Shown here in pieces: positions 7,459 to 41,767 of a DNA stretch of 64,000 nucleotides (positions are counted from its first letter, which is position 1; each line of letters opens with the position of its first letter). A program made the position numbers and the translations under genes. Source of the stretch: Lingula anatina (Eukaryota; Animalia; Brachiopoda); contig CM120645.1 in assembly GCA_051362555.1 (NCBI GenBank), positions 17,360,001-17,424,000 on the forward strand, in the 5' to 3' direction. The notes under the pieces were generated by a model, which had not been told where the DNA came from, did no database searches, and was given only the letters and a program-made list of their open reading frames with translations.

Positions 7459-7480
7459 CTAAAAGAGTCTCTTCTCATAC
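7459..7480 (-). CDS. IMPDH: IMPDH terminal exon (YEKRLF*)
   Basis: ttgcag|G TAT GAG AAG AGA CTC TTT TAG, the canonical IMPDH C-terminus. Confidence 0.95.
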
Positions 7481-10400: not shown

Positions 10401-13400
10401 TACAGTGTTTGGCTGGACAAAGACATCAAAATAAATTGCAGTTTTCATTTGTGCATTTGAGAGAAACTAATATAGTAACCAATTAAAAATTAAGAATGGT
10501 TATGTATTGGAAAAGTATTTAGATTCAATTCCTTAATGTTACGTGTTAAAACAGACTTCCACTTTAAGGGTCATTCCTTAGGATTTTCCAGCCAAAATTA
10601 ATTTTACTGGGGTAAGGAGCAATTTTCTGCGGCTCACGAATAATTGGTTGACCCGTCCTTACACTTGGGATCAATGTTTTATTCCATATTAATTGAAGAC
10701 TTTAAACGACTAGCTAATTATTATAAACAACATCTGAAGTCATGTGCATTAAGTCATTTTCCCACATAACAAGAAAATGGCAGGTTGATTTGTTATGCAG
10801 CACTGTACTGTAAATACAGCAATGACTTGATCCTTTCAATGACCACAAATTACAGAGTAGCCTGCTTTTTAATTTTTTTTTTTTTTTTTTTTTTTTTGCT
10901 ACCACTCGAGAAGTGCTATAATTTTAGGAAATTATGACTTAAAAAATACAGTATTTGTAAAATCCCCCCCCCCCCCTTGAATGGATTGAGTAATTATTGT
11001 CATAAAGGCAATGCAAGTTAGTAATGGCTACCTGAGGCTGAAAAGATGACACAAGGGCCACACAAACTTTTATTTAAAGGGTTTTATTGTCATTAGAGTC
11101 TGGATTGGGAAACATAAGAAGCTTTACAGGACATACATATGACTGTGGGGGATTTTCAAACATGTGGAGAGAACCTCAAAGTGGCCCTTTATAACTTAAA
11201 AGTTTGATGTAACATCACTTTCTTATCATCACTGGTTCTCATTATCTGTATTGTTCAGTAATGTACTGCCAAAAAGTCAACTTTGCATCTGACTCATTTC
11301 AATATAAATTTTCAAGAAAAAAATCTTCAGATCTTAAATAATACAGAAATGATACTAATGCACAAATTTTAAAAGGGCTATTAAAATTTATTATGAAAGG
11401 CTATTAAAATTTAATATGAAAGGCTATTAAAACGCAATATGAAAGATTATTGAGAATTGCATAAATTATACATCAATTAACATGGATGCCACTTAGTTAG
11501 GAAAATATTTCCTGTCCTTTCACTGACCAAATCCCGTTTTTCACTAAACAATACCACCTTTTTTCTCAGCCTCCCAACTCCCCTACAGCTGTCCAATCCA
11601 CCAATTTTTTTTCACCAAACTAATTTTTTTTATTTACTAGATAACATACATTCAAATATCAAAATTTAACACATTGTCAGATACTTCTGGAAGACTGCCA
11701 TAGTCACTAAAAATATAAAAATCTTCCTAGAAGACTGTTCTTAAATTAAATTATTCCTAACCAAAATGCCAATTTCCCTGACAATTCACTGACCTAAAAA
11801 ATAATTTCTCTGACTTATCAAGTAAGGTGGCAACCGTGAGTTAATTTAGATTTCAAGATGCTTACCCAACATTACAATGAAAAGGTAGGATTAAGAGACA
11901 ACCAACAAACCCAACTAACCCATCATGAGGCAGGGATTGTTCCATCTTGAAGGTATCTTAATATTGGAAGAAGAAAATATGAGGAACTTCAAAAGCAGGC
12001 TTTATCATGATTAATGCACTATTAACAAACCAGATAAATGAACAAGAACAAGAACAAACAACAACAGAAAGTAAAGCATCCTTTGAATTTATAAGATTTA
12101 ATTTAGACTGTAGGAAGCATCAAATTAATTTTGCGATTTCTTCCTTTCTCACAAATGTCAAACTTTTAGTAAACATTTATTTTCAGTTAATTTATTATGC
12201 TACATATTAACAAATAACAAAGTAAAAATAGAGCATGAAAGCAGTGAATAAGCACATGGGGCCTTTTTTTAAACAAAATTTGAACTCTGCAGTGCAAGAA
12301 AACAGAAAAACTGACCAGCATAGCAACCATTCATATAACAGGCAAAATATAGCTCTGGCTAACCAGACACTGCAGACAGGGAGCATTTAGGAACAAAACA
12401 GTGGAATTATAACAAACTGATATAATTCTTTCAAATTTTCAACGACAGGACGATTAATATCAAGTAAAAGGAAAAAAGAGGTGAATACACTCAAAAAATA
12501 AAAAATAAAACAGTTATTATATAACTCAAATGAAATTCAGGCAAAAAAGTCAGCTAAAGCTGATGTGAACAGACAACCAATATCATTTTAAACATGAAGA
12601 CTGTGAAAATAATATAGCATCATAATTATGCACTTAAATCATATGACAACCCTACCCCATATAAATCTAAATGAAATACATAGTAAGACCAAAAGCACTT
12701 GTCTTTCAAAGAGCTTGAGTTGGGGGGGGGGGGGACGGTAGGTCAAGCAAGCTTTTTTATCAAAATTTACCTTTATTTCATGATGAGTCAGCCCAGTAAG
12801 TTGGGTTTTTTTTCTGGATTGAGGATATTATACGTTATATTTGTACATTGGGAGAAGACAAATTTGAATAGCTTAAAAACAAAATGGTTAGATAAAGGTG
12901 ATTTTCAAACTTAATGTGCACTTAATGTATTAAATTATAGTGGTTGAATTTGAAGTTGAAGCATAATATTGTCAACAACTTTTATCACCATAATATGCTG
13001 GAAAAAAGGATAACTCCAGAAAAATGGGCAAAAGAAAACACTAATATTTGATTTCAGCCTGAACTTTAATATGAAATGGTAAGTTTGAGGTTAAAGTCAC
13101 ATGATAGTTTTCCATTCACTGTGTTAACAATGCTTACATAGAAAATAACACAATGTCATGCTGAATTATTTCAATACACTCAGGATAACCTTTTCATACT
13201 GGTCTCATAAAGTTGATATTTAAATTTGGTCTGTGTTTAAATGCTATGAAATGCACTTGTAGGTTTTAGGACAATAATTTACACCGTTTCCATTTATTGT
13301 GTTAAAAAGGAAACATGGGCTGAAAAAAAATTTAAAGGGTAATTTAAGCAAAAATGGTTCAAAAATGGTCCTATTCCAACTTGATCTGTGTTTTAGTGAT

Positions 13401-14050: not shown

Positions 14051-14134
14051 GAATACAGCCCGTGTACACCCCCTTCTCTTTGGGAGGCAGGGGTGCGCCT
14101 TTCAAACTTAATTTCACCAGAATACAGCTTTGCT
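14051..14134 (-). CDS. IMPDH: IMPDH exon 14b, duplicated alternative exon ([28 protein letters not shown])
   Basis: 84 nt, phase 2-2, ttcag acceptor and gtaagt donor; 18/28 aa identical to 14a; no stop codons. Confidence 0.88.
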
Positions 14135-14212
14135 CTGAATTGGGATATAAACAGTAAAATGAAAAGAAATGTACAGACACATCAAAGGTTTCTTACACAT
14201 TCTTTTACTTAC

Positions 14213-14296
14213 GAATGAAGGCCATGAACACCCCCTTCAACTTGTGAAGACACTGTACGCTTTTCTAATTTCAACTCTCCTGAGTACATCATAGAT
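14213..14296 (-). CDS. IMPDH: IMPDH exon 14a ([28 protein letters not shown])
   Basis: 84 nt, phase 2-2, ttag acceptor and gtaagt donor; closest to the vertebrate sequence. Confidence 0.95.
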
Positions 14297-15912: not shown

Positions 15913-16056
15913 CTGAGATGAGACAGACTTTTAGCACCTATGTCTTGGCAGCCATGCTGGATTCCTGCGACCAAATATGGCATAAATTTATGGACAGTCC
16001 CCTTGTCCACTATAGTCCCTGTGACACCTTGAGCAACCTTCAATTTCTCACTTTCA
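15913..16056 (-). CDS. IMPDH: IMPDH exon 13 ([47 protein letters not shown])
   Basis: KVAQGV motif; 144 nt. Confidence 0.97.
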
Positions 16057-16357: not shown

Positions 16358-16505
16358 CTAGTATAATATCTCTGCATGCTTCCCCGGTGTGATTCCATTG
16401 CATCCAGGGAGCCCATGCCTCGATATTTCTTAAGTCGAACTCCATCAGCAAAGAAGTATTCCCCTGGAGCTTCTGAAGTTCCCGCAAGCAGTGATCCCAT
16501 CATAA
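16358..16505 (-). CDS. IMPDH: IMPDH exon 12 ([18 protein letters not shown]...[12 protein letters not shown]...RYYT)
   Basis: YRGMGS motif and the flap RY dyad; 148 nt; GTCAGG donor. Confidence 0.96.
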
Positions 16506-18349
16506 CTGAAATAAAGAAGTTAGAACATTTTCTTTAAACTATGATATTCAACAAATAAAGTAAAATATTTTCCATTATAATAGTTTTAATTCCTTGCAAA
16601 AACTTTCATCAGAAAGGAAATATTTGCTCCTGGGCATGTACCACCAGCTGGACTTGACACACACAAAAAAAGGGCTAATAATAACACACATAAATAGCTC
16701 AAAAGAACTACCATAAAATGATCTCAATTTTGACATATAATGCTTGGCTCATCTTGTTTTCGTTATTATTGTTTCAATAAATTCCAGGAAAGTGTACGGC
16801 AACAGTGACGGCAGACACAGGTGATCACGGCTATTCATGTCTGAATACACAGTGTCTGTCCATAAAAAATGGTAATCTAACATTTTTATGTTCCACATAG
16901 AATACCAATTTAACTTAAAGGGACAAAAAATAGGATTAAAAACGCCTTTTTAGTGCATGGATTGCTTCTTATTTAACTTATCTGAGAACAATTGCTATGG
17001 GTAAAGCATAAAATGGCAGGTAAATGGCCTTAATCAATATCGAAAAAAAGAATCATATTCACCGTCCACTTTCGAACCCCGGGCGTCAGCCATCTTGACA
17101 CAGTTTGAAATAACGCGGCATCTCGACTCAGATACGAGATGTAAACAATGCAGACAGCATGTCTCACTCGACTGCGAAGGTGAGCGTGGGCGAGTAGAAG
17201 AGGAATTGTTCACAGAATCTTTGCAGGTAAGCGGGTTATAGTCACTATATGTGCTTTAAAATGGGAAGGTGGCAGGAAATAAAAATATCTAGCAGTGGAA
17301 GTTTAAACGCGTAAATAACTGCTACATTTCCTCGGATAACGCACTCGCAGTCCCCAAACCACTCGCACTGCGTACTTCGTAGTTACATGAAGCGTGGTAG
17401 TGCACTTTGACCCTGAGGTATATAGTTCTGTAAACCAGGAGGAATACCGTTTTCTGCTCAATGTGGTAATCTACCAGTACTTGCAGACGAACCTCACACC
17501 ATATTCCCGCAGGGGAATCCCATGAGATATACAATGTAACTCGAGTACTACATACTAGTTGGGATAGAGCCATTAGAGGGTGTTCTTTGTACAACACGTA
17601 ACTCATTTGTAAATGTATTAATATTGTCAGATAAGATAAGATAAGAGTTTATTTAGCCAATTTTAAAAATCGGAAATCATTTTAATTTTGGAGCAATATA
17701 AAGAGTAAAATAATAGAATAATACAATAAATAAATAAATATGAATATGATTATAAGGAATGAATATGATTATAATATACAAGGACTGAATTTTTTTTTAG
17801 CCTTTCAGAGGAGGAACTGGTTGATACAACCCTTCAAGCACAAAGGAGAGAACAGGTATGTTAATAATTTTAGCAATACACCAGGTAACAGGGGCGGATC
17901 CAGGATTATTTGAAGTGGGGGGGGGGGGAGGGGGGGGTCCGCGGATGCAAAGCCGACCCTCTAGTTGCTGTGGGGTTCTGGGTCCGCTTAAAATTTTTGC
18001 TATTTTAGAGGGCGAACAGTGCCATTTGGTATGGTTTAGTACTATCGATTAGCTTGTCAAAATTCTAATTGCAAATGGGGAATATTAGTGTGATTTTTTT
18101 TTTTACATCAGTTCTTTAAAACCACGTGTGATTATGTTATTTCTTCTTGTGGCCTTTATGATCTAATGCAGCTATAGCTATTTAAATTTAATTATTTTGT
18201 GCCATAATCAGACTATCTTCTTTATCAAAAGCTGGTTATCATGTAGTGATCATGCCCTCTAATTTGTTAATTTTTGTTAAAGAATAGTGCTGTTATGATA
18301 ATATCAATACATTTTTTCTTTGTAACCATTTTATGTAATTTTACTATTA

Positions 18350-18612
18350 CAGTGCCTCAAGTTATATCTGGAAAACTCACACCAGGAAGCACTCCAATCT
18401 TACAATACTGCTTCACTTCAATGTCGGCGTGACAAGTTGTGCAAAAGACTGCTACAAAAAATGTGCACTAATGACCACATAATCCACCACCTTTTACCAA
18501 AACTGAGTGAACAGTTTTATATTATAATGCCCACATATTTTAAGTGCCAAGACTGAGATCACAGAGAGCCTCAAGGACTTTTATTTTCTGGGCATTGTCA
18601 ACTCTTCAATAA
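18350..18612 (+). mobile_element. LINE ORF2 C-terminal fragment
   Basis: Reads HQEAL...LQCRRDKLCKRLLQKM...HHLLPK, typical of the L2/CR1 tail region. Confidence 0.55.
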
Positions 18613-20013
18613 TTTAAGAATTTTGCCAAATACATCCAAAGATTCAATTCTCATGCAATTCTTGAAAACTTTTTTAGAATATATTTTAATGTCGAACATG
18701 TTTTTCTAAGAACTAGGCCTTTAGTAAATTAACAACATGTACTATCCAACTGTTATTATTATTAACATAATGTTATGTACAAAGCATAAGCTGCAGTATC
18801 AATGTAACATTAACTGGGTAGAGATTATGAATGAAATAAAAGTTTAAATATTGAAACATCTTTTATTTATATTTCAAATATTTGGCAAAAATACAAGAAT
18901 AAAGTTTGCTACATAAGTTTGGAATTTGGCCAAATCATCTTTATTATTACCTGTCACATGTAATAAGACATACACAGATTTTGTAAGCTAGAATGCATAA
19001 TTATTTTCGTACTTATTAATGCTTTCTTCATAAATAAGCCTTCCATTCAAGCATTCACAAACTTTCACATTGTGCAGTACACTATAGTATGGTAACATTT
19101 TTGAGAGAGACTTATTAACAGCCGGGCTATCATGTTAAGAGTCTGATGTACATGCAGACCCATGAGGATTGCAGATCAACAAATTATCCCCCTCTCTGTC
19201 AGTGTATTGACTCATGTGAGCTGACACAAAAATCTCCATTCAAAGGGATGTGTCATGAGAAAGGACTAACCCCACTTACACAAACATAAATTGTTTCATC
19301 AGAAGATATTCACACATACTTTTCCAAGATGTGCAGGGAATAAATAGAAAGGTATAAATATTTCTTTAAAAAATACAGGCATGGCTTCCCTGCATGAATT
19401 CTAAATAATGGCTTTGTGGAGAATTGAATACAGGCACAAGTGTTCACTCAAACCATTTTTGTAGGTCTTAAAAGAAATGACATAAAGTCACTTGCAAATA
19501 CAGAATTTTATGCTGGAACAAAGTCACAAAACTGCAACTGGTGATCTTACAAAATCTGACAACACACTGGTTTAAAATCAAGTTGAAGTCACAATATGCC
19601 ACCAGTACCATATTCCATAATACATTTGATGTCATCTATATTTTAGAAGTAAATGCTGGACCAAAATGGTTTATTCTCAATATCAGGCATATGACTTAGT
19701 TTTGGGAGGAAAGACCACCTTGATTTCCAATCTGTCTGCATTATAGCATACATGTCAGTGCTAGATGGTTTGAAGTCAGCAGATTATGCTTTGTCACATT
19801 GGCAAGATGAGTTCACTGAATATATCCTGTAAGCAGCGCTCGAAAGTCAGGAAAAGTCTCTCACTATCCACCTCGTCCCCGCTTTGGACCCTCAAGAAAA
19901 GTTCCTCTTTTTTTGGTGGAGAGCCATGGAGTTCCTCTTCCATGTAAAAAACTCTTCTTCAGGACATCATACTGGCAGTTGTTCATAACCTTAAGGTCTA
20001 AAAAAGCAAATCA

Positions 20014-20555
20014 AAATAATAATAATAATAATAATTTATTAAGATTGCAACCCAGTGGGTTGAAGTTGTACATAGTGTTAAGAAAATTATAATGAAAATA
20101 AAGTGAATATTTGCTTGAATAAAACTGAGTTAAAAGACTGCTAATTGAACTTTAAAATTATTGTACTTAGGATGAAAGACAACATAATACTATTGGAAAT
20201 TTAAAAGTGCATATGGAATAAAAGAGCATCGGAATCTGTCGGTCTTAAATTGTGGCAATTTGTTACTATTGTTTGATCTTAAAAGACGATTGGATTGCTC
20301 AATAAAGATGTGATTCAGTTTGTCAGAGGATTCAGTTATTTTGTAAAAGAAAGTTTTGAACAGATCTCTTCATTTATCTAAAGTACACATATTTGCCAAG
20401 TTCAGGGTTTCATCATAGTGTAGGTCAGGGAAAATAATCTTCAAAGCACGAGTTTGGTCAGTCTCTAAGAGTTTGCATTGCTCTATAGTTAGTCCTGGAT
20501 GCCACACAGGGCAGGCATATTCTAGAATTGAGTGCACAATACTTTGGTAAAGCTT
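20014..20555 (-). mobile_element. LINE (L2/CR1-group) 3' fragment
   Basis: Reads ILEYACPVWHPGLT...KTDRFRCSFIPYAL, followed by AATAAA and a (TTA)n tail. Confidence 0.85.
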
Positions 20556-21857
20556 AGCTCGTTTCAGTTGATGGAAGAAATAGAGTCTTGCATTATGTTT
20601 ACATTATGTGTTGCCAATTTGGAAAAAAAAATTGATAAAAGAGAAATCATGCACCTATAATGCCTAATATATGATAACATAAACATGCAATATCCCCTTT
20701 CTGATTTATTTATTTATTTATTTATTTTTAATGTAAAAAGGAAACTTAATTGCCTTTAGAATATAAAATCAAAATACTATTCAAAGACATTTTCAATTAT
20801 AGTTGACATGCCATTTAAAACTGAGTTAAACTTATATACAATAACAACTTCTGCACATTCATTTTGGGATTAAGATGCCTAAAGAAATAGCATCTTGGTC
20901 ATACGTCTAAATTACTGTGTTTTGTATGCCCAGATGTAAGAGGCACAAGAAATGTGCCCTCGGTAAGTCAACAATTCGCCCCGGCCATGGTAATGTACAT
21001 GTAATGAAACCAGTATCTCCCACCATGTCCATTTCCATTTAAACTTTCTTTGCTGTATAAACTTACCCAAACCCTGTCAGAGTCGACATATGAGCAACAC
21101 TTGTAATTCCTGTTATCGATACCACTCATATCGATTAGTTACAATTTCATGGCATATTTTGACAGACGAGCCTGACAATCGTTAAGAAATACAACGAACA
21201 CACGTAAATAAACATTAATATCTGTGCTTAATAAATATTTTTACTGGTGTCTTATCTCAAACATAATTGTAAATGGTACTCACAAATCCAGTAAATACTT
21301 CGCGGCCAGGCGATCCTTCGTATCCATGGTCATCCATGCAAGCAGGTTAATTTTCATCTGCCTTCTTCCTCGCCGGTGTTTATTCTTTGCCTGTCGTACA
21401 TTTGCTGATACCCTGTTTTACGCGCATTTTATTTTTCTGGTGTTGACCTTTGTAAAGAGTGTTTGATTTTTCTTTTTGTTATCTTTCTTCCCTTCTTCGA
21501 TGGAGTCTCAACTAATTCAGCCTCCTGTTCCATGTGCTTTCCCGGCAGCTTGAACTAGTTTTAACTAGGTCGCAATACGAGAATCTCGCGATATCCGGAA
21601 GTCTAGAGAGCTCAATAATGAAAATGGAGGTGGTTGTTGGTAAACCTCCGCTTAAGCGGAGGTTTTCTTTTTATTGTATTTTCCAAAAATGTTACAGAGC
21701 GATGGCGAGTGCCGGGAATGATAGATTAAAGGTTGGTAAATCGCGGAAAAGTACTGTTAACCTCAGGATAAATCGGGATAAATCAATTTTGGCGCGAAAA
21801 TCCTCTTTTGTGTCCTTTTAAGTTTGTTCAGTATTATGTGTATTAAGACAAGCTTAC

Positions 21858-22001
21858 CTGTAGATGCTCCTAAAGCTAAAGCCTTTAGAATATGGCCCAC
21901 AGACTGTATTCCACCATCTGCTATCACTGGAATGCCAAACCTTCGTGCATACTCTGCAACCTTGTAAACAGCAGTACCTTGGGGACGGCCCACAGCCATC
22001 A
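21858..22001 (-). CDS. IMPDH: IMPDH exon 11 ([47 protein letters not shown])
   Basis: ADGGI motif; 144 nt. Confidence 0.98.
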
Positions 22002-22148
22002 CTGAAATAGTCAGGGTTAATGCATTCCCTGGATCATAATATATATTTGGAATTTAAGTGGAATTTAAAACACCTAAATGGCTTATTTTGTTTCACAGCC
22101 TCAAGATGAATTAATTGAAAGAAACAGATTGTTTACTGTCAAAACTTA

Positions 22149-22292
<144 letters not shown>

Positions 22293-22404
22293 TTAATGAG
22301 TATGTATTAGGTAATGTGGAAATTTCATTAATACTGAAAAAGCAAGTCATCTTTTCCTTTACAGCGGCATACAATCTGAGGGAGGGTGCTATCATAGTTG
22401 TTAA

Positions 22405-25400
22405 GTGTGTGTCCACGAGAAAACCAGACCAAATGTAGAAAATGCGGCAAGGCGGGGGTGAACGGATTTACACCATATTTGGTGGGTTTGAACCTTTATA
22501 TGAACAATATCTGAGGCTGCAATATTTCCTGAAACAAATCCCTACTTACAGAGATATGGCCAGTGAAAATTTGGGGGGTTTATCAACCAAAAATTCATCT
22601 GAAAAACAGGGTTATATTGATTGGCCTTACAGTTTATACAGGTGTCACTAAATGATTTAGTTTGGTGATATATTATAACCTAAAGATATGGGGATTAAAA
22701 TGACATACACTTTTTCACTCTCTTTGTTTCCATGGTAACAAACCAAACGTTTTTCTCAGGGCTACGAACCACATGCTTTGAACACCCCCCTTCTAATTTT
22801 GACAATATCTTCATCTTCACAGGTCTTTGGGGTAAAGAGTGTTCAGGACTAACAGATAACTCATTAATCTAATTATACATGAAATCAAAACTTACTGCTG
22901 TTCTACAACTTGTCCGTTGTAACAGATAGAACATGACCTAATTTCTCAATTTTTCATATTATATCCGGACACATATATCGGTGCACTCAACTTCAGCTAT
23001 CTCTTTCAAGTCAACAAATGGTCTAAAACACTGTAAGTTGACCTTTTTTAGTGTCATTTAACCTATTTTCTCTTTTTTTCTGGTTAAAACAAGCATCTAA
23101 CGCATTTTAAAATCATGTGAAACTAATGTACTAACGTCAGAACAACACAACGTCATTATCTAACATGGCAGAAATCGCAGACTGTTTCTTTGCAAATCTT
23201 CCTCAAGGAAGTCGTATACGGTAATATGCCAAACAATTCGACCAAGATTAATTAATTAATTTCATGGAAATGTCAGTTTGGTCGAATTGATTAAAATACA
23301 GCAATTGGAAACCTTTGATATCGTCGGATTGTTAGGGGCATCTGCCAAAACGTCCATCTTTCCGGAAGCATTGCATTTTACCGGAAGTGTTACGCAAGAT
23401 AAGCCGCAATTTTCGCCTAACACGTATTTCAGGCATGTTTTATCCTTCTTCTGAAATCTTATTTTGCTGTGTACAATACAATGTATGTGCTAACATTACT
23501 TAACATTAAAAAAGACGACAATTATAATTTCTGATTATATATTTCCCTCACCTACGATCATTTTCATGATGCGCTTCACAAGTGGGACGAGTATTTCCCC
23601 GGAGACAGGTGTTGTAAACAAAGGCCGGTCATTTATATTTGAAACCGGTAGCTTTAGTGGACTTAAACTAGTTATGTGATCTACGTACGTCCTATTTGAA
23701 TTTTAATATGACAACTGAAATCAACCGAATTGAATTTTTTTTTACCAGTCTGAGATCAGTTGTTTTCAACCCGCAAGGCTTGCTCAGCGTCGAGGCGTAG
23801 ACGTACGTACTAGTACTTCCGAAGAAAATTCAATCACCCGTATCAAAGAATACCAACTGGTGCTCAAACGAAAATCAGTGTAACTTCAAATTACTTTTAA
23901 GTATTTTATTTAAAAAGCATGTCATATTAAAACATATTGGGAAAAGGCAAAATACGAAGCCTACCTGTGCCGATAGACATACAGTATCTTGCTGGCACTC
24001 TTCCGATTTTCTTACTTATATGCTCTCGCTGTGCACAAACCACGGTGCATATTGAAAACCCCACTGATACAACCCGAACGTAAAAAAGCATTTAATTGCC
24101 ATAATTTTCACAAAACAGGTGCTTTTATAATTTGACGTGAGAATTGAGAACATGCAGAAAAGAAAGACTGGTCTTGTCCGGTCTGATCTAGCATAGCGCA
24201 AACCACATGTTAATGAAGACGGTTCCATTTTGGGGGAGGGGGGGTCACAGGAATGGAGTTTTTCGTGGATTACGCTAAATATTATCAACATTTCATGCAC
24301 CTGGGGAAATAGAAAGTGACTCACAGGTAACGTAAATACCCAGTGGAACTCTCTATGAAGCTCCCATGGAGTTAAGGAAGACGTCATTTTTATTGTTGAC
24401 AAATCAGTTATCCATGTAGGTGAACAGCTACACGTGTTCGTCAGATTTTGACAGCGCGTGGTATTTGGCGCCAAGAAGTCTGGGCGGTCGATCCCGCTGA
24501 TCTTTCGGTCGATTGTAGTAAATGTGAGATCTTGCGGTGTTGACTTCAAGAACGTTTCCCCATCTGCATATATATTTCAATCGAACTTGAAAATAAATTG
24601 CTTATTCTTCCCAAACTTTTTTATTGCCAGCAAACGCTATTATAATACTAGTATATGGTCTTTATGAAGGTGTTTACCACGTATTCTACCCACTGTCGAT
24701 ACTTGGTTTCATCCATAATAGACCTTTTTTTTTAACCCCCCCCCCCTCCCCAGTTACGGGCGTGATGAATCAGTCAGCGAGGGCAAGTCTGCTTAATTAG
24801 CACAATTTGTATGTCTATAAGCACTATTGTTGTCATCGGGGACAAAAGAAATGACAGGTACGTCATGCTTCCAGATTAGATCTTCAATTAATTGTTTCTT
24901 CCTCATTGACGAGAGCTATTGAAAGAACAACAATTGACAAAGGGCCGAGGCATGCAGCATCTATTTCACTAGCTTGAAAATGTACCGAGTCTTGCCGACG
25001 ATGTGGTCGAACAATCGGAACAAGAAAAAAATCCTGTCGCATGATTTTGACTAAATGTTTGAGCCCAGAAAAATTAATTTTATAAAATAATTTTTGTGGT
25101 CGGATTGACTGGGCCCGTCGAAATGCTTGGCACATTACCGTATCATGTGGTTTATACTCTGCCTACAGATATGAAAAAACATGTAGTGTATTGAAAAATT
25201 GCAACAGAGATATCAGCAGTCTTCTTTGTCGCGTTTACGTGAAGCAAAACAGCGTGAGTTACGAAAGCAAACTGATTCTTATCAGATGTGGATTATTTTG
25301 TCTCCGATGACCGAGTTGGACATTTTCAAGTATCTTTGGAAGAAATTAATGAGTTACACCATGTGACCAGCACAGAGATATGGGCTTGGTTTGTGCTGGA

Positions 25401-27985
25401 AACCATCCACACAGGAAAAAACGAGCCTATTACGAAATATGTCATGGGATTAACTCGCAGATGTCAGTGGAGACAAAAAGCCATTTACTGGTGCCACTTG
25501 GTTCAGGTAAGCAACGAGTTTTTGTTTATATTTTAATACAGGCCCAAAGCCAGAAAAAAGTTAACTCAGGAAAGTGATCTAGGTGCAGTTTTTTATGGTA
25601 AACGGTCCTTTTTTTAAAGAAAAATGAACCCTTTCAAATACTTGTAATGAAATTGCAGCCTAAGGACCTGTGATAATTCTATCTTTTAAGCTATATTTGT
25701 GTGGGCATTTATGTAGGTTTAAGGGTATTTGGGTAAAATAAATTTAAGAGTAACAATTGAAATTGGATTGAAGCTAGGGCTGGTCTTGGCAAAATTGCTA
25801 GGCTCATCATAATTTATATTCGAAACCATGTCTTATTTATTAAACATGGACAAATGGGATAATAAATTATGTTTCATCAATGCATCAATTAACTTTGAGA
25901 TAATTAAGTGTTTTCATGTGTCTGTAGTAAGCTATATTTATATTTCAGGCATATTTGAGAAGTGTTATTTGATACAAAGTAATCTTATGGTCAGCAAAAG
26001 AGTCCAAAGCCTTGCAGAAACTGAAAATGTCACTGACCAACTGACTAGTGTGGAAATGACGGATGATGTAGAAAGGCATGTATATGGAAATGAAAGCCAC
26101 AATATAACAAATGCTGAGGAGATGCATGAGGCCCTAGTTTCTGCAGATGGAGTGAAGGGGTGCTCTTTTTCTGCCATTTTTCTCCATCCAGCTAGACAGA
26201 CATCTTCCAAACCTGCGTGGACTGGAGTGTCCAATTACAACAATTTGGCTTTCTTAATTCCTACAACATGAGAAAAGGTGTCTCTCTTCCTTGAGCAGTT
26301 TTAATATAAGTGATACTGATGTTAAAGTTAATTTGGGTTTTCCTGAGGCCACTGTGCCAACTGGGTATATACCGAGCAAGATCACAAACAAAATTTTTTC
26401 TTGTCCCTGAAGTCTGAAGAGTAATTAACAGGTCCTTTTTTTTTTTTAGACCACAGTAATGAAATGTGCCAAAAAACAGCTTTTGATCAAATAAAGGGGC
26501 CAACAAGTGAGCCAACAATCTGACTAAAGACAAACAAGCACATCAGCTCTGAGAAAACTCACAACCTCTTGAATATCTCACTGAGTTACACAATGGTTGA
26601 GTCATCTAAACCTTTGAAACTATATTCAAATAAAGTAAAGGAGTTTTTACTGAAGGAGTTTAGAAAGGCACAAGAAACAGGCCATCTGGGCTGCAATGTT
26701 TGATATAAAACTGCAAAGATGTTTCATAACACCAGGATATATTTTGCAGTTGTGTTAGTTTTGCTTTTTGAATAGAAACTTATCTTCTTTTGCTACATTA
26801 TGATATAGTTTGTAATGATCACAACTAATGTTGCACTGCTTTGCATGTATTGCTGTATCATAATTTTGTGGTATTTTTTGTAATTGTTCATCTGAGACAA
26901 AAATAAACTAATTTGAATAATTTTAGTTACTGTATGCTTATAAATAGTGTGGATGAAAAAAAACTCTTGAAAATTAAAAAGATCCCATCTGGCTTTGCTC
27001 TCATAAATACTATGGCATATTCTGATCTGCTACATGATAAATCTATGATAAATATTGGACCAAAAAGAAATTCGTTATTAAACTATGATTTTAATTTGTA
27101 TTCACCAGATTGATGATATTTTTAAAGACTATGAAAATTATCATGTAAACTCTTAAGTTAATTGCCAGTGCATATCCAAGGTAATAGAATCTAAGATTTA
27201 TTTCCTCTAAACTTTTTCTCCTCAGAAATTAAAAAGTCCATATATGGCAATTTACAAAACTGAAGCCCAGTGACCTTGACCTATGACCCACTGACCTGAT
27301 ATTCATTAGAATACATCCTCTTTCCATGCTCACCAGCCCTATTAATTTAGTAACATCATTGTAGAGCAAAATGGTATATAATAAATTAATCAAACCCATT
27401 GTCTACATAGACTTGAATGAATTCACCACGATTTTTTGCCTTAAAAATGGCCAACTTTGGGGGTATTTTTCAGTACCTGTTTTAATACAGCAGTAACTTT
27501 TGAAACTTGATTTGAAATGATCCATATCTGCCTAAAATATTCATGCAGTTTTAAAGCTGTAAACCCTGTGAAGATGGAGATATATGCAATTAAAGATGGT
27601 AGTGTCAAAATTGGACTTAGGGGGGAGGGGTGTTATAAATGGGTGTGGCTCCCCCAAGCAGGGTCTTATCTGAATTCTACATATATCTGTGGCAAGCCAA
27701 ATAATTGTTTTCAATGTTTGTAAGGTCTAATATTTTTTAGTTTTCTCCATTTTTGTTTAATTTACACAAAATATATCATTATTTTTCCAAGGTAAAAATG
27801 GAGTCTCAAAGAGGCTACATAAGCCACAACCTATAATAGGCTGTAATTCTCCTAAGAAAGGATATATTTGGGATTCCTTCTTAAATCATGAATAACTTCC
27901 CAATATGTCTCCATACAACAAATGTGGTTGAAATCCGCTGACCCCCACCTTGCCACCCTGGGCTGGTTCTCTCGTGGACAAGCTC
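22405..27985 (+). mobile_element. Decayed DNA transposon, Sola3-like, in IMPDH intron 9
   Basis: TTAA on both sides and ~70-bp imperfect TIRs (G.G.TGTCCACGAGA.AACCAG). Broken transposase-like remnants lie at ~25170-25506, 25950-26260 and 26620-26690. Confidence 0.65.
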
Positions 27986-28938
27986 TTAAAATGATATAAG
28001 AGTGGTGTCTAAAATTGTTTATCTTAAATAATCATCACCATTAGATGTGTATATTATTCGTCAAAATGCGATTTTAACTTCGTTTTTTGTGCGTTCTTCG
28101 CATTCAGTTTTATGCTCTGCTGTCTTCGAAAACGCGCGCACTTTTCACTACAAATACTATTAGGGTTTCCTAACCAGCATGGCCATTGCATCATTTGACG
28201 TTGTGTAAGTGCAAGGTTTCCAAATGTTAAACGTCTTATTTACCTCTGTTGAAATGCCACTGCCCTCTCTATTATGATCCTACTTTTATTCATGCTAGTT
28301 TTGTGTCATACTTCCTTCTGCTTTTTATCCCTCTTATGTGCTAAAAAGTTTTTCTTTGCATCTTCCGATGCAGTGACTTGTTAAATTGGGACAGTCACGT
28401 GGTACGCCTGCTAACTCGACCTTCACCGCTGGAAAGTAGGTTGAGCAGTTTTCCCACACTTCTGTTCCATGACAAACAAAAATCACACCACCATACTTAA
28501 TCTATCATTTCACACAATATAAACCAAACTGTTTTATCTTAAAACCAGAGTGTCAGCAAGGTGTACCTGCCTCCTGGGTCTGTACAAACATTTTGACCAA
28601 GCAGATGCATTTTTAGATCAACATTAAATAGAAATCATCAGAGGTAGTCTAAAATGAGGCTGTGGGCAGTGTGATATCATTAATTTATAGAAAATGTGCT
28701 AGAATCCCTATGAGGTTATCCAGCTATCAGTGTGAATCTCAATGCACAGGAAATGTCCCCAAAGAGAGTAATACAAAAGTGACACACAATACATGTTGAA
28801 TTAACACTGTTGTGCAAAAGACTAACCTGACAGAAGTTAAACAATGAGAATATCCATGGATAAACTGAACCTAGATTTCTAGGAAATAAAGCTCCCAGTA
28901 TATTAAACATAACACAAACAAACAAAAAAATAGTTCCT

Positions 28939-30790
28939 AACAAGGCAGCAAAGCTGTCAAATGTACAGACAAAGAACAGAAAATAAAGATGCAAATAAGT
29001 GAAAAATTAAATTTTCACAAAAAACTGTTAAATTGCCAGAAAAATTTACCAAACTGACTGCATTGCCTATTGAAGCTGTATGTTAGACCCATGTTTCTTT
29101 CTTGTAAGTTTGAGAACAGTAAGTGACATGATTTCCCTTAAATGGTCATCATAGGAGCAGTGCCCAAAATAGGGGTTTCTTCAATTTTGATGCAACATTA
29201 CATAATGTTTAACAGCATAATGACAATCAAATGTTATTAATAAAATATTAGTAACATGGACATTCAGAAAATGTGACAAGCAAAAGTCTTCAAGATCATG
29301 GAACTTTAAAGTCACACCTTGAAAATGCCAATATGTGAAAAATTAAATTTTCACAAAAAACTGTTTAACTGCCAAAATAAATAAATAAATAAATAAAAAT
29401 ACCAAACAGACTGCATTGCCTACTGAAGCTGTATTTTAGTCCCATGTTTCTTTCCTGTAAGTTTGAGAACAGTAAGTGACATGATTTTCCTTAAATGGTC
29501 ATCATGGAAGCAGTGCCCAAAATAGGGGTTTCTTCAAATTTTGATGCAATATTACATAATGTTTAACAGCTTAATGACCATCAATTTTTAATTATAAAAT
29601 ATTTGTTTCACAGATATTCAGAAAATGTGACTAGCAAAGGTCTTCAGGCCCATGGAACTTCAAAGTCACGCCTTGAAAATGCCAAAATGTAAACAAGACA
29701 GCACTGTTCTGAAATGGGTTTATTTCCATTTTTAACACTTTTTTAACATAAAACAAAATAAACATTTTACTGCCATTTTATATGACCAACTAAGAAAATT
29801 GATGAGATGGGAAAAGTATCAATAGAACAGTGTTAAATGTCCAATTTCCTCCATTCTGAGATTCTGAACATAGTGGATGATTGAATCTGACAAACTGCAA
29901 TGATATGAGATTATTCCCATTTTTGACACTTTATTACACAATACATGATAACAAGTTTACCATGTTTTTTACATAATCAACTAACAATGTTGTAAAGATG
30001 CAGGAAATATCAAACAAACACTTTTAGGCATCTTATTAGTTAAATAATGAGACTGTTAACATGCCTAATAATTGAATCTGAGGAAATGTGAAAAACAGTA
30101 TAACTTCTAAAATAATGGCCTGATTATGCTTTTTTTGGAACTCAACCTGCGTTTTAGTAAGATTGACCACTCCTGTGAGTATGATTACAATTGGCCAATC
30201 CATTTTTCTTATATTGTGTTATCAGTGTTGTATTTATATTGAAAATAGTGAAAAAACAGCATAAATTCCCTAAAAATGGCCCAATCATGCTGATTTTCGA
30301 ACTTGACCTGCGTATTATGAATATTCATCAGTTCTGTAAGTTTCAAGTCAAAAGGTAAAATGGTTTTCCACTTATCGTGTTATCGGTGCTGCATATATGC
30401 TGAAAAAAGTGAAAAAACAGCATAAATTCCCTAAAAGTGACCCGATCATGCTGATTTTCGAACTTAACCTGCGTATTATGAATATTCATCAGTTCTGTAA
30501 GTTTCAAGGCAAAAGGTAAAATGGTTTTCCACTTATCGTGTTATCGGTGCTGCATATATGCTGAAAAAAGTGAAAAAACAGCATAAATTCCCTAAAAGTG
30601 ACCCGATCATGCTGATTTTCGAACTTGACCTGCGTATTATGAATATTCATCAGTTCTGCAAGTTTCAAGTCAAAAGGTAAAATGGTTTTCCACTTATCGT
30701 GTTATCGGTAAAAGTGCACGGCGACGACGGCGACGACAGACGCAGATGATGGCTATATGTACAGACACATCTGTGTCTGTACATAAAAAA
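28939..30790 (+). mobile_element. Helentron-associated (HINE/DINE-like) element with internal tandem arrays
   Basis: 5' aacaaggcag..gctgtcaaatgtacagac and 3' gacgacagacgcag...agacacatctgtgtctgtacat hairpin; internal ~340-bp x2 and ~160-bp x3-4 repeats. Confidence 0.7.
30249..30708. repeat. ~160-bp tandem repeat (about 3 near-identical units plus 1 diverged upstream)
   Basis: Unit gtgaaaaaacagcataaattccctaaaa... starts at ~30249, ~30409 and ~30570. Confidence 0.9.
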
Positions 30791-31250
30791 CCGGCAGAAA
30801 CAATTTCTACCAAAATTTACATAAATTACCAGAATGAAAATAAAAAACACTCTGACCAGTCCAGAGAAGTAGTTCAAATACTAAACCTGAGGTCTGAATT
30901 GAACATCTCTATGATGACACTGATTTCAAGTTCAATCTATAGTATATGATTCCTGAGACATTTCACATCCAAATTTGAATTTTTATTTGACGAAGTTGTC
31001 TTGCACAATGCCTAAGGCATCTGAAAATGCACTGACAGACCCTTAAACCTCTCAGGGCAAATTGACATTTTGTGGTCTTAAAGAACAAGGAAGAAGTCCA
31101 TCATTTTTAAGGAGTAGCAGTAAGTGCAGGCTAAAACAGGCTAAAACCCAGGTATCTCCAGCACACATGCAGCTGGTACAAATAATCTATAAACAACCCA
31201 AGCACAATTAAACAGGAAACAATAAAATCCTGTGTATCAAAGCATCATAC

Positions 31251-31341
31251 CATTTCCTCCAATGATCTGTAGCTCTGGATAGTTGCCTTTTATGTATCTT
31301 ATCATGTTGATCTGGAATATGGAGTTGCCCTGTGAAGAATC
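31251..31341 (-). CDS. IMPDH: IMPDH exon 9 ([30 protein letters not shown])
   Basis: DSSQGNS NAD-site motif; 91 nt. Confidence 0.97.
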
Positions 31342-31505
31342 CTAGAACACAAAGCAAATTTAATGTAATCATTGGAAACCCAAATACTTATTGATGACCG
31401 TACCATACCAATATAGTGGCTTTTATGGTTATGTCTTTCTTTAAAAAAATATTCATATTGTACTTTATCTATATATACACATAACATGACGTAAGTAAAC
31501 ATCAA

Positions 31506-31774
31506 CCTGGGCCCAGTTTCATCAACACTGGATAGCGCTATCTTATGGATAATAATGTCCACTGTATAAATCTGCTATGCTATGGGCAGTTGTCCTGAAG
31601 AAAGCAGTCATTTTTAACCACTGGATAGCAACATTAGAAACAAAAATATTTGTCTAGCATTAAGGAAATATTACTTTAAACACAGGATAGCAGTCCAGAG
31701 GCTAACAATTTTATCCAATGGATAATGTTGTCCATAGGATAGCGCTATCCAGTGTTGATGAAACTGGACCCAGG
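31506..31774. mobile_element. Palindromic MITE
   Basis: TIR CCTGGG(C/T)CCAGTTTCATCAACACTGGATAGCGCTATC. Confidence 0.8.
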
Positions 31775-32308
31775 ATTTTAAGAGCAATATCCTTTGTAGA
31801 TCATTGCAGATTGACTTCAAATGTAATATGCCTTCTTCAAACCATTTCAAATGAACACACATAAAAATGTCAAATCTGATAGAAGCAGTTACATTAACAC
31901 TACTATACAAACTGTTTCCACATTTTCCTCAGTTTGGGAGATATTTCACATTTAATTTTGAAGCATTCTAACAACATATCCAATCCCACAATCTAACAGG
32001 TGTCCTAATTCCATAACATGAAGGCATGGGTCTTTGTAGTATTTGAAGAAGAGTGATACAGGAGACTAGTTCCCAACATCCAGGTCTTGAGGGGGCTGAA
32101 CAGGGCAGTTCCAGACCAATCCAAAGATCCCCCAGTGGTACAATTATTTGTCAAAATGTCAATGTGATAGCCGTGCTTAATTTTATGTTTTGCCTATCAT
32201 GGTTCAGATTTCACTTGAACATTCTATAAAAAGGTTTTTCATTAAATGTAATTGGAAATCTAGTTGACTTTAAACAAAATAATTTCTGATGGAAATGAAT
32301 CCACTAAC

Positions 32309-32405
32309 CAGCACAACTACGTCAACTCCAGCCTGGACAAGGAGGTCCAGTCGTGTCCTGTCCTCTTCATGAGTACTGATAGCTGCACCGACCAACAACT
32401 GCTTT
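32309..32405 (-). CDS. IMPDH: IMPDH exon 8 ([32 protein letters not shown])
   Basis: Conserved GAAI and AGVDVVVL; 97 nt. Confidence 0.96.
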
Positions 32406-32584
32406 CTGGGGAAAGACAAAAAAGAAAAAAATGTGGTCTTCATAACAGATTACTTTTATTGAAATTCAATTTTGGTTACAATATGATATCAAAACTCTGT
32501 ATGATGTGTAACTACAACCAAGGTTATGGTGACGGAATGACATGGTTATGCCAAAATTAGTGATTTTTGACTTAATATACTTAA

Positions 32585-32921
32585 AGCAATAATAACTCTT
32601 CGTTTCGGCCAAAAAATGAATTTTCCTGGAGTAAACAACAATTTTCCCATGCTTACCAATGGTTAATGAATCCATTTTTACATTCAAAGTTAGTCCCTGG
32701 TTTTTTTCTAAAAAGTTTGGTTTTTTGTTAAAATCTCTTAAGAGATTTTAACAGAGTATAGACATCAATGGAGGTCACGTGGTCTAAAGACAAGTTCAAA
32801 TATCAGAATAAAAGCTATAACTGCTGTTTTTGTGGTAAAACAGAATATATTATATTTCTATGAGTTATTCACAATGTTTTTATTGTGAAATATAGGTCTC
32901 ATACAAAGAGTTATTATGACT
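32585..32921. mobile_element. TTAA-flanked MITE (copy 2)
   Basis: Collinear with 42496-42810; TTAA flanks. Confidence 0.72.
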
Positions 32922-33513
32922 TTAACATATTCACTTTACATCTATAATAGAAAAATTAAAAAAAACTGCACATTATCTATAGATGAAAATATTACCTTCT
33001 TATCAAATAAATCTATCAATGTTTTATGGCAGATTATAAACACTGTTTAACATTATTTTATTGAAAAATTTTATTTTCATCAATGCAGATGGCTCACAGG
33101 TTTGTTTGTCTGAAGATAGTTTAAACCTGATCTGAGGTGTTATCAGGATGTTCAAACAGAGCATCCAGAATTACCTTAGTCAATTTTGTACTATCAAAAC
33201 TTCTACTGATTTTGCTCTTATTTACTAAATTTTAGTTGAGCTTTGCTCACTAACTCAGAGTGTAGGCAGCTCCAGTAGAGACTTAGATATGATTGCTAAG
33301 ATAAAATGAGGTAAGCTGCCTTTTATATTATTTGTGAAACAACTTAGTCACACACAGTCTTTGTAACATAGATGACAAAGATTTAAGCCACAAAACTGAC
33401 TTGAGATTTTTTTTTTTTTTTTGGAAACAGGGGCCATATCTAAATCTGTTACTCTAAATGTGACCACTGCAATGAGAATCTGCATTTACAAAACATCTGT
33501 GCAAACTACTTAC

Positions 33514-33616
33514 TTGTCATCCATGGATGCTACAGGGAATTCTCTCCTCTTTTTTAAATCTGTCCTGGCCATCAGAGCAACCAGTTCACCATTCTCATTT
33601 ACAATGGGGAGCTTGC
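33514..33616 (-). CDS. IMPDH: IMPDH exon 7 ([34 protein letters not shown])
   Basis: KLPIVN and ARTDLKK motifs; 103 nt. Confidence 0.96.
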
Positions 33617-33754
33617 CTTGAATGAAATAAATATTCTGTACAAGTGGAAATGTTAACATGAGTACTCAATCTATACCAGTTATTATTATTATTATTATTA
33701 TTATTTATTAAACTTAAGAAATAATAATTACAATGTACAATACAATGTCAATTC

Positions 33755-33756
<2 letters not shown>

Positions 33757-33811
<55 letters not shown>
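33757..33811. repeat. (CT)n(CA)n microsatellite
   Basis: Direct reading. Confidence 0.9.
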
Positions 33812-34130
33812 TGCCATAAAACTACTGTATATTCAGTATTTTCATGTATGAAAAAAATGCACACATAGAAAAGTACAGTATTATTTTCCAGTAAAGAAAG
33901 CATTCAATGTCCCTGAAGGACAGATGAACTCCATTTTTTTCTCAAGTAGTATTTTATCTGAGAAATAATATTTTTTTCATTGTCTACGAGAATAAAATCA
34001 AATATGAACATTGGCTCCCTTTTCTTCCCTAATCCAGTTTTTGATTTGTTTCCACAAGTTTTTCATGACATCACAGTCTACAAGCAAATGCTTATTTGTT
34101 ATTAATGATTACTATTATTATCAAACTTAC

Positions 34131-34218
34131 CTTTTCTGCTTTCTTGCAGTATTTTGTTGGCCTCTGACAAAGTGACCCCCGCTGTGGCTGTCACCAGGTT
34201 CTCTAGGGAGGTCATGAC
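34131..34218 (-). CDS. IMPDH: IMPDH exon 6 ([29 protein letters not shown])
   Basis: CBS2 sequence; 88 nt; canonical splice sites. Confidence 0.96.
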
Positions 34219-34579
34219 CTGTGGGTGAAAGGTTAAAGGTCACTCATACTGTATGATTAAATAAACCATTCAAATGCTAGTATAATCATGAATTTAAAAA
34301 AAAAAGGTCACAATTTCCTACAAATTTTCGACTGACATTATGACAGGATGTACATTCTCTTTTTCTTTAATAATTTTTCTAAAATAATTTCACACTATAA
34401 TCATGGTGTTTATTTCCATATTGATGGGGCTAAGAATGAAGGTCACAATTACAACATAAATGAAGGCCTATATACAAATTCTGACTTCTCAAAGATAATT
34501 CGAATAAAAAAGGTTAAGTAACACAAGCAGATCATAAAAATCATTTTCTTGAAATATTTTTCTTATCCCACTTTCATAC

Positions 34580-34786
34580 CTCTTTAACAGGTCTGTCATA
34601 CTTTTCTGGGGGGAGGAAGTCAATATCTCTCTGTGTCACCAGTCCTACCAGCCGCCCACCCATTCTGCCGTTTTCTGTAATAGGGAAGCCAGAGAAGCCA
34701 TATTTTTCCTTCTCTTTCCACACATCAGCCACTGTGTTGTCTGGGCCCATCACTACTGGGTCTACTATAAATCCCTGCTTGTATTT
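34580..34786 (-). CDS. IMPDH: IMPDH exon 5 (Bateman/CBS domain, KYKQGFIVDPVV...RDIDFL)
   Basis: Lies within ORF 34574..34801; 207 nt; canonical splice sites. Confidence 0.97.
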
Positions 34787-35167
34787 CTGAAATGTGACCA
34801 AATCATAGAATCAATTCTGCAGGTTTCACCATTCAACTGGGCACAAATTTTCAGTAAATTGATTTCTCAAAATATATAACACTAAAAATATATATAGCAC
34901 AATTACAGTCATTTGACATCAGCATATGTACTTTCATGTATGTCCGACCCAAAAAAATATAATAATCAACAGACTTTGAACATCTGACAATCCTCAATTT
35001 TATCATAAAGAATCTATTTTAACGTGGCCTATATTTTAAAATCAAAATTAGACATCAAATATTGCTCAAACACAGACAAAAATAAAAAACATTAAAAGCA
35101 ACATTTTCCAGGTATGATGGGGGTGAAAAATCTAAATAATTTTATCAATTTTACTTTAAAAATGTTA

Positions 35168-35205
<38 letters not shown>

Positions 35206-35644: not shown

Positions 35645-35719
35645 CTTCACTAGTCTAACTTCATTTGCCTGAAATTCTGGAGTGCAATTGTGGTGAATGA
35701 TCCCTACGCCTCCAGTAAG
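35645..35719 (-). CDS. IMPDH: IMPDH exon 4 ([25 protein letters not shown])
   Basis: Conserved [13 protein letters not shown]; 75 nt; canonical splice sites. Confidence 0.97.
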
Positions 35720-39617: not shown

Positions 39618-39794
<177 letters not shown>

Positions 39795-39873
39795 TTATTC
39801 TTTTTAAAAAGTACACTTCTCATTTTTCACACTTAAATTAAATTAAAGTTTCAAATGAAAAATAAATAAATAG

Positions 39874-41764: not shown

Positions 41765-41767
41765 AAA

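What the first reader, a model, noticed from the sequence alone, without database searches (positions are those of the whole stretch)
14051..14296. Tandem duplicated, probably mutually exclusive penultimate exons give two IMPDH C-terminal variants from one gene
Seen: two 84-nt, phase 2-2 exons 78 nt apart, both with intact AG and GTAAGT sites, encode [28 protein letters not shown] and [28 protein letters not shown] (18/28 identical). Of the 17 fully exon-encoded conserved residues, 12 use different synonymous codons, which suggests an old duplication with purifying selection on both copies rather than a dead copy. Established: in vertebrate IMPDH this segment carries the EGG K+-binding carbonyls and lies next to the helix that receives the N-terminal tail in filament (rods-and-rings) assembly. 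Inference: splicing may switch K+ activation, GTP sensitivity or polymerisation, doing by exon choice what vertebrates do with the IMPDH1/IMPDH2 paralogs. I do not recall mutually exclusive exons being described for IMPDH.
Basis: partly seen in the sequence, partly recalled or inferred. Interest (0 to 1): 0.88.

Follow-up and report, generated by a model that had tools for sequence, protein, structure and literature searches.

The report
Either-or twin exons in brachiopod IMPDH
A brachiopod gene for IMP dehydrogenase, the enzyme that sets guanine-nucleotide supply, carries two old copies of one exon and RNA reads show it splices in one or the other, so it makes two messenger versions whose enzymes likely differ in regulation rather than in basic chemistry.

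Summary
Confirmed. Two 84-nt, phase 2-2 exons (a 14296-14213, b 14134-14051, minus strand) encode human-equivalent IMPDH residues 480-508 in a Lingula anatina gene. In 8 RNA runs, 201 entry-junction reads use a and 18 use b. No a-to-b or skip-both junction was listed. b is 13 of 31 reads in one study and 5 of 188 in the other two; tissues are unknown. Silent sites are saturated (pS 0.77, pN 0.22) and b scores like natural IMPDH segments. RefSeq already models both forms (XP_013422151.1, XP_013422152.1); five literature searches showed no description. New here: a few reads join b to a 37-nt exon (11956-11920) that replaces the last six residues, echoing retinal IMPDH1(546). The named filament contacts and the EGG motif are identical in a and b, so a K+ switch or IMPDH1/IMPDH2 mimicry is unsupported; three changes lie inside the filament-groove helix. 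No b counterpart was found in other animals, but no other brachiopod was identifiable in the data. This is a new member of a known class (PKM, KHK, OGDH-type exon swaps); functional effect untested. The scan had not noted it on other DNA.

The parts
14213..14296 (-). Exon a (84 nt, phase 2-2): major form, IMPDH residues 480-508 in human numbering
   Evidence: 201 entry and 131 exit junction reads in 8 runs; RefSeq X1 and X3
14051..14134 (-). Exon b (84 nt, phase 2-2): minor form, 10 residue changes against a
   Evidence: 18 entry reads in 6 of 8 runs; 7 exit reads to the last exon in 3 of the 4 runs; RefSeq X2 XP_013422152.1
14135..14212 (-). 78-nt spacer intron, the shortest of the gene; only yTRAy branch-like motif has its A at nt 31 from the donor of a; 55-nt AG-free stretch
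   Evidence: motif scan only; branch point not mapped
15913..16056 (-). Upstream constitutive exon; its donor is joined to a or to b
11920..11956 (-). Exon c (37 nt, AG..GT): rare extra exon seen after b; carries a stop and replaces the last six residues by ten others
   Evidence: 14051>11956: 3 reads, 3 starts, run X8; 11920>7480: 4 reads, 2 starts, run X4; translation
7459..7480 (-). Coding part of the last exon (six residues and stop)
16358..47649 (-). Remaining 13 coding exons of the IMPDH gene (47649-47366 N-terminal extension exon; 46821-46723 with the canonical start; through 16505-16358)
   Evidence: tblastn and exon model against RefSeq X1

Best explanation
This IMPDH gene holds two tandem copies of its penultimate coding exon and splices in either copy a (the usual one) or copy b (rare in most samples, about 40% in one study), giving two equal-length reading frames whose enzymes are predicted to be active and likely differ in regulation. 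SHOWN: both exons are joined to the same upstream and downstream exons; joined a+b and skip-both forms were not listed; both copies carry the signature of purifying selection; b is sometimes followed by a 37-nt exon c that changes the C-terminus. INFERRED, origin: an old duplication inside the brachiopod lineage (silent sites saturated; both copies share the rare S497; no b counterpart elsewhere). INFERRED, exclusion: a+b and skip-both would both be in frame, so nonsense-mediated decay cannot enforce the choice; the likeliest cause is steric, with a branch point about 31 nt from the donor of a, below the ~50-nt limit described for OGDH (about 55% likely). INFERRED, effect: catalytic and named contact residues are unchanged, so b would tune the enzyme, most likely through S481A/M482K/M483L in the helix that lines the filament groove and through V495P/S496A/V499R just before the cation-binding turn (about 50% likely that a measurable difference in filament assembly, GTP feedback or cation/inhibitor kinetics exists). 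The b+c form would lose E510 and R512, the loss proposed to weaken GTP inhibition in retinal IMPDH1(546).
For: Junction reads in 8 runs, 3 studies (tallied in 36): upstream>a 201, upstream>b 18; a>last 131; b>last 7; no a>b, no skip. b share 13 of 31 in study P2 against 4 of 146 (P1) and 1 of 42 (P3); Fisher p 4e-9 on reads, 1.5e-6 on distinct read starts. RefSeq X2 differs from X1 only at the 10 a/b positions. pS 0.77, pN 0.22, p 1.4e-5. b scores above 31 of 81 natural segments; 0 of 20,000 decayed copies reach it. AlphaFold2 models of both forms give the same helix-strand-helix and confidence over the swapped part. Helix 476-485 and R480 form the filament groove (PMC7018514); E487/K489 form the second interface (bioRxiv 2021.08.03.454821 section 7); swapping the last 30 residues between fungal IMPDH-A and -B changes mycophenolate resistance 7-fold and that segment holds half the cation site (bioRxiv 2026.01.19.700455). 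Y12, C331, R356 and R480 are kept.
Against: No assay and no protein-level evidence. b is only 2-3% of entry junctions in two of three studies. The b-rich study has an unspecified library selection and low counts (31 reads), one of its runs (X6) has reads along the long intron, and tissues are not given, so regulation by tissue is not shown. Joints under 3 reads per run are not listed and 4 listed-level joints were hidden, so rare co-inclusion is not excluded. R480, E487, K489 and E500-G502 are identical in a and b. Each b residue also occurs in ordinary single-copy IMPDHs (P495 18 of 77, A496 21, Y507 28, R499 3, K482 3, L483 3), which fits tolerated drift. No b counterpart in other species. 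Filaments were reported only in vertebrates as of the 2020 paper. The 55-nt AG-free stretch is matched by 1 other of 17 introns and two weaker branch motifs lie at nt 53 and 58.
Confidence: 0.72

Rival explanations
1. Both exons are real and mutually exclusive but biochemically equivalent: b is kept intact only because it is used often enough in some cells that a broken copy would cost enzyme, and its 10 changes are tolerated drift.
For: All named contact residues are identical; every b residue occurs in natural single-copy IMPDHs; the two models fold alike; no conservation of b-specific residues across species was found.
Against: K482 and L483 are rare (3 of 77 each) and 482-483 is MM in human IMPDH1 and IMPDH2; a swap of this segment alters kinetics in fungal IMPDH; b use differs strongly between studies.
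Confidence: 0.2
2. b is a leaky or decaying copy, and its high share in study P2 reflects library type (nascent or unstable RNA) rather than regulation.
For: b is 5 of 188 entry reads in the poly(A)/oligo-dT studies; P2 selection is unspecified; X6 has reads in 24 of 30 bins and b>last was below the listing threshold.
Against: X4 shows fully spliced b at parity with a (b>last 4, a>last 4); in X6 a>last is also low (2 against 8 entry reads); silent sites are saturated while the frame and all but one of 13 near-invariant residues match the family; RefSeq models b.
Confidence: 0.05
3. The exons are independent cassettes, not strictly exclusive: a+b or neither are also made.
For: Both combinations are in frame; 78 nt is long enough to be an intron; listing thresholds hide rare joints.
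Against: No a>b or skip joint among all joints listed or those shown, against 131 a>last reads.
Confidence: 0.02
4. Assembly artefact: two alleles or paralogs placed side by side.
For: An identical partial IMPDH (residues about 84-303) occurs in a chimeric RefSeq model on another scaffold (P0005), so this assembly has redundant pieces.
Against: a and b are only 55 of 84 nt identical; reads from three studies with different alleles join the same flanking exons to both copies.
Confidence: 0.01

Closest known systems
Tandem duplicated exon substitutions in metabolic enzymes: OGDH exons 4a/4b (PMC7969005, passages); PKM and KHK (rows in the supplement of PMC8373072)
   Same: Two homologous, equal-frame internal exons used one at a time; core residues kept; for OGDH a branch point 25-41 nt from the upstream donor enforces exclusion, as inferred here (nt 31).
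   Different: IMPDH has 0 hits in the human catalogue supplement. Those events are conserved across vertebrates or bilaterians and OGDH has a measured functional difference; this one was found in one species and has none.
RefSeq Lingula anatina IMPDH isoforms X1 (XP_013422151.1), X2 (XP_013422152.1), X3 (XP_013422153.1)
   Same: The same gene and the same a/b pair; X2 is the b form.
   Different: Automatic models only; no paper found; exon c is in none of the three sequences.
Human retinal IMPDH1(546)/(595) splice variants (bioRxiv 2021.08.03.454821 passages and section 7; PMC9022972 passages)
   Same: Splicing changes the IMPDH C-terminus right after this segment; b+c would lose E510 and R512 as IMPDH1(546) does; the RefSeq X1/X2 models also carry an N-terminal extension.
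   Different: The human variants add or replace tails, 37 new residues, and do not swap duplicated exons; exon c gives ten unrelated residues and rests on 7 reads; no homology between the tails was tested beyond inspection.
Penicillium IMPDH-A / IMPDH-B paralogs (bioRxiv 2026.01.19.700455, passages)
   Same: Divergence of the last ~30 residues, which hold half the monovalent-cation site, changes kinetics (7-fold mycophenolate resistance on swapping).
   Different: Gene duplication in fungi under antibiotic selection, not exon choice.
Vertebrate IMPDH1 / IMPDH2 paralogs (PDB 7RER, 1B3O)
   Same: a has S481 like IMPDH1, b has A481 like IMPDH2.
   Different: The paralogs differ at only 4 positions in this exon; the other 9 a/b changes do not follow the paralog split.

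Membership tests
Tandem duplicated exon substitution (mutually exclusive homologous exons) | Two adjacent homologous exons of equal phase and compatible length | tested here: met
   84/84 nt, phase 2-2, 55 of 84 nt identical
Tandem duplicated exon substitution (mutually exclusive homologous exons) | Each exon is spliced to the same flanking exons in RNA | tested here: met
   all four junctions read
Tandem duplicated exon substitution (mutually exclusive homologous exons) | Co-inclusion and double skipping are absent or rare | tested here: met
   neither joint listed in 8 runs; limit 3 reads per run, 4 joints hidden
Tandem duplicated exon substitution (mutually exclusive homologous exons) | Purifying selection on both copies | tested here: met
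   pS 0.77, pN 0.22, p 1.4e-5; profile test
Tandem duplicated exon substitution (mutually exclusive homologous exons) | Tissue- or stage-specific choice | tested here: inconclusive
   b share differs between studies but tissues are not given and library type differs
Tandem duplicated exon substitution (mutually exclusive homologous exons) | Both copies conserved in related species | tested here: inconclusive
   no b counterpart; no second brachiopod or phoronid identifiable among the named records
Sterically enforced exclusion (OGDH type) | Branch point of the second exon within ~50 nt of the first exon's donor | tested here: inconclusive
   only yTRAy motif at nt 31, weaker motifs at 53 and 58; lariat not mapped
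Eukaryotic IMP dehydrogenase | Full-length catalytic barrel plus CBS pair, catalytic Cys331 loop | tested here: met
   E 1e-269 to human IMPDH2 over 1-515; b model matches IMPDH structures
Filament-forming IMPDH (vertebrate type) | Y12, R356, R480 and the N-terminal 12 residues | tested here: met
   10 of 12 N-terminal residues identical to IMPDH2; Y12, R356, R480 kept
Filament-forming IMPDH (vertebrate type) | Actual polymerisation and its effect on GTP inhibition | not testable with these tools
   needs purified protein or imaging
IMPDH1/IMPDH2-like regulatory split | a/b differences coincide with paralog-specific residues | tested here: not met
   1 of 10 a/b changes (481) mirrors the paralogs

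The most novel reading that the evidence does not exclude
The brachiopod has independently built, by splicing alone, a tissue-restricted high-output IMPDH: exon b reshapes the filament-groove helix and, with exon c, removes the E510/R512 contacts that stabilise the GTP-compressed state, paralleling the retinal IMPDH1 variants. With the duplicated CBS1 exon seen in annelid sequences and the alternative tails in octopus and bivalve models, this would make splicing a recurrent, undescribed way of tuning guanine-nucleotide feedback in invertebrates.
Probability: 0.2. Interest if true: 0.75.

Novelty: new member of a known kind. Interest (0 to 1): 0.5.

Why it matters
IMPDH is the rate-limiting, feedback-controlled step of GTP synthesis and a drug target, and the swapped 28 residues carry both filament interfaces and half the cation site. 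Two natural variants on an identical background are a clean test of how this segment tunes filament assembly, GTP feedback and K+ activation, and of whether an invertebrate IMPDH with the vertebrate-type N-terminus polymerises. A splicing specialist would not be surprised by the mechanism; an IMPDH specialist would find the case new and easy to test. Its weight is limited by apparent restriction to one lineage, low b use in most samples, and the lack of any functional data.

Tried and rejected
No genome is held for this window, so gene copy number and repeat status of exon c outside the window were not tested. Run search: no RNA holder listed by shared words; nine raw-read runs were added by species label and 8 of the 9 were laid (X9 not). 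A homologue search with exon b plus 13 in-frame intron residues found nothing. Search for a b counterpart: 77 proteins by the b-form C-terminal 40 residues plus cluster members; among 143 segments scored, the best non-Lingula match shared 6 of the 10 b residues and the two residues K482+L483 never occurred together; 40 hits among 50%-cluster representatives, all single-stretch, at most 5 of 10. These sets hold cluster representatives and at most 15 listed members per cluster, so they are weak evidence of absence. Metagenome scan for the exon end plus donor: 26 loci, none with a second copy; two extra weak places (L008, L015) lacked splice sites; several loci have under 200 nt on one side. RNA-pairing (docking/selector) exclusion: no convincing inverted repeat at either exon; the best were 25 nt at 72% and 14 nt at 86%. 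AlphaFold2 monomer models do not distinguish a from b, and residues past about 500 (human numbering) are low-confidence. The human/hamster K+ ligand numbers E500-G502 are recalled; the search for them failed; passages read give only the bacterial equivalent and the general statement. A search of PMC10849882 for helix residues found none. No complex prediction was run: a tetramer or filament interface exceeds the size limit. Earlier scan notes held nothing on this locus.

Full report
Observation. On the minus strand, 14296-14213 (a) and 14134-14051 (b) are 84-nt exons with AG acceptors and GTAAGTAAAA donors, 78 nt apart. They are 55 of 84 nt identical; 17 fully exon-encoded residues are shared and 12 of them use different codons. 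Both align with residues 480-507 of human IMPDH1 and IMPDH2.

The gene. An exon from this gene matched Lingula anatina IMPDH records at 100%. A 16-exon model from 47649 to 7459 with exon a reproduces RefSeq X1 (610 residues) with 2 mismatches. RefSeq X2 differs from X1 at exactly the 10 a/b positions, so both forms are already in automatic annotation. No third copy, and no duplicate of any other exon, is in the window.

Splicing. Eight of nine listed raw-read RNA runs were laid (about 6% or 25% of each run). Upstream exon to a, by run X1, X2, X3, X4, X5, X6, X7, X8: 57, 40, 45, 6, 4, 8, 21, 20 (201; X7 and X8 include an allele-shifted row). Upstream exon to b: 3, 0, 1, 3, 2, 8, 0, 1 (18). a to last exon: 131 in all. 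b to last exon: 0, 4, 1, 2, and below the listing threshold. No a-to-b joint and no skip of both was listed; the threshold is 3 reads from 2 starts in a run, and 4 joints were hidden (none). By study, b is 4 of 146 (P1), 13 of 31 (P2) and 1 of 42 (P3); Fisher p 4e-9 on reads and 1.5e-6 on distinct starts. Mates may be counted twice, tissues are not given, P2 has an unspecified library selection and X6 has reads along the long intron, so the difference shows variable use, not proven tissue regulation. In X4 fully spliced b equals a (4 and 4).

A third element. Three reads in X8 join b to an acceptor at 11956 and four reads in X4 join a donor at 11920 to the last exon. This 37-nt exon c has AG and GT ends, carries a stop, and replaces the last six residues by ten others. 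No a-to-c joint was listed although a dominates in X8. No read was shown to span both joints, and seven reads is thin. If real, b+c loses E510 and R512, whose loss is proposed to explain the lower GTP sensitivity of retinal IMPDH1(546) (bioRxiv 2021.08.03.454821, passage).

Selection and age. Between a and b, pS is 0.77 (saturated) and pN 0.22 (p 1.4e-5). Against a profile of 81 homologous segments b scores 81.7 and a 83.5, with a natural median of 86; 0 of 20,000 neutrally decayed copies of a reached b's score at either divergence level (the segment set was partly retrieved with b and filtered by a motif, which favours this result). Both copies share S497 where 73 of 77 homologous segments have Ala, a weak sign that the duplication followed a lineage-specific change. 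No b counterpart or second copy turned up in 143 scored protein segments, 40 representative hits or 26 metagenome loci. None of the named records was another brachiopod or a phoronid, so conservation is open.

How exclusion probably works (inferred). a+b and skip-both are in frame, so decay cannot enforce the choice. The spacer is the shortest of 17 introns. Its only yTRAy motif has the A at nt 31 from the donor of a and is followed by an AG-free stretch of 55 nt, tied for the longest in the gene; weaker motifs lie at nt 53 and 58. OGDH exons 4a/4b are held exclusive by branch points 25-41 nt from the donor, under a ~50-nt steric limit (PMC7969005, passages). No convincing pairing elements were seen.

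What the swap may do (inferred). The exon encodes the second half of helix 476-485, which lines the groove that takes the N-terminus of the opposite tetramer, with R480 bonding to I6 (PMC7018514, passages); E487 and K489, the contacts of the inhibited IMPDH1 filament (section 7 of the bioRxiv paper); and the C-terminal part that supplies three main-chain carbonyls to K+ (PMC4594927 and PMC4342496, passages; the human numbers E500-G502 are recalled). All these named residues are the same in a and b. The changes are S481A, M482K, M483L in the helix, L488I, L490F, K492R in the strand, V495P, S496A, V499R before the EGG turn, and H507Y. Swapping the last 30 residues between fungal IMPDH-A and -B changes mycophenolate resistance 7-fold (bioRxiv 2026.01.19.700455, passage), so the segment can tune kinetics. 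Against this, each b residue occurs in ordinary IMPDHs, and AlphaFold2 gives the same local fold for both forms (b model matches IMPDH structures). The protein keeps Y12, C331, R356 and 10 of 12 N-terminal residues of IMPDH2, so filaments are plausible, though the 2020 paper says they were reported only in vertebrates. Human IMPDH1 and IMPDH2 differ at 4 positions of this exon and only position 481 is mirrored, so the paralog analogy is not supported.

Comparison with what is known. This is a tandem duplicated exon substitution, a described class that is often tissue-specific and keeps core residues (PMC9741552, passages). PKM, KHK and OGDH are in the human catalogue and IMPDH is not (PMC8373072, passage and supplement search). 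IMPDH splicing in print concerns the retinal tails (PMC9022972, passages; PMC10849882, listing only). Searches for IMPDH with mutually exclusive exons, Lingula splicing, invertebrate exon duplication and IMP dehydrogenase with brachiopod (0 papers) showed no description; I saw listings only, the library lacks most subscription papers, and bioRxiv supplements were closed. MetazExp (PMC8728262, listing only) mentions Lingula and may tabulate the event. Earlier scan notes held nothing on it.

Verdict. The exon pair is real, expressed and mutually exclusive to the depth examined (about 0.93). A functional difference is likely but unshown (about 0.5). It is a new member of a known kind, apparently undescribed for IMPDH, already present as unremarked RefSeq isoforms, and so far confined to one species. 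Interest 0.5.

Noticed in passing
window 11920-11956 (-): Rare 37-nt exon joined from exon b (3 reads, X8) and to the last exon (4 reads, X4); gives a different C-terminus; no a>c joint was listed.
   Followed up: partly
P0002 (Paralvinella palmiformis KAK2168313.1), P0006-P0008 (unnamed): Two tandem, diverged copies of the 69-residue CBS1 exon of IMPDH: probably a second, separate mutually exclusive pair, in the regulatory domain, in annelids. The window has one copy only.
   Followed up: partly
Octopus and bivalve IMPDH models (P0137-P0146, P0033-P0041, P0021, P0046): Alternative C-termini begin exactly after this exon in several molluscan gene models, one four-residue tail recurring in three bivalve genera.
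   Followed up: no
window 47366-47649 (-): Upstream coding exon adds a 95-residue N-terminal extension in RefSeq X1/X2; molluscan and annelid models also have extensions. Not checked in RNA.
   Followed up: no
window 14213-14296, codon 490: The major exon a, not b, has the unusual residue here: Leu where 76 of 77 homologous segments have Phe.
   Followed up: partly
window 14708-15016: MITE-like element with 19-nt perfect terminal inverted repeats, flanked by a 41-nt direct repeat (14669-14709, 15021-15061), in the intron upstream of exon a.
   Followed up: no
P0005 (XP_023933184.1): Chimeric RefSeq model: PP4R1-like protein fused to a piece of this IMPDH on another scaffold; likely an assembly duplicate.
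   Followed up: no
window about 53600-55000 (-) and 59700-60850 (+): Open frames that look like von Willebrand D-domain exons on both strands (recognised from recall, not scanned).
   Followed up: no
window 10122-10154: A short stretch draws hundreds of reads that run on into GGCATC/GGCGAC-type repeats: an expressed dispersed repeat, not part of the gene.
   Followed up: no
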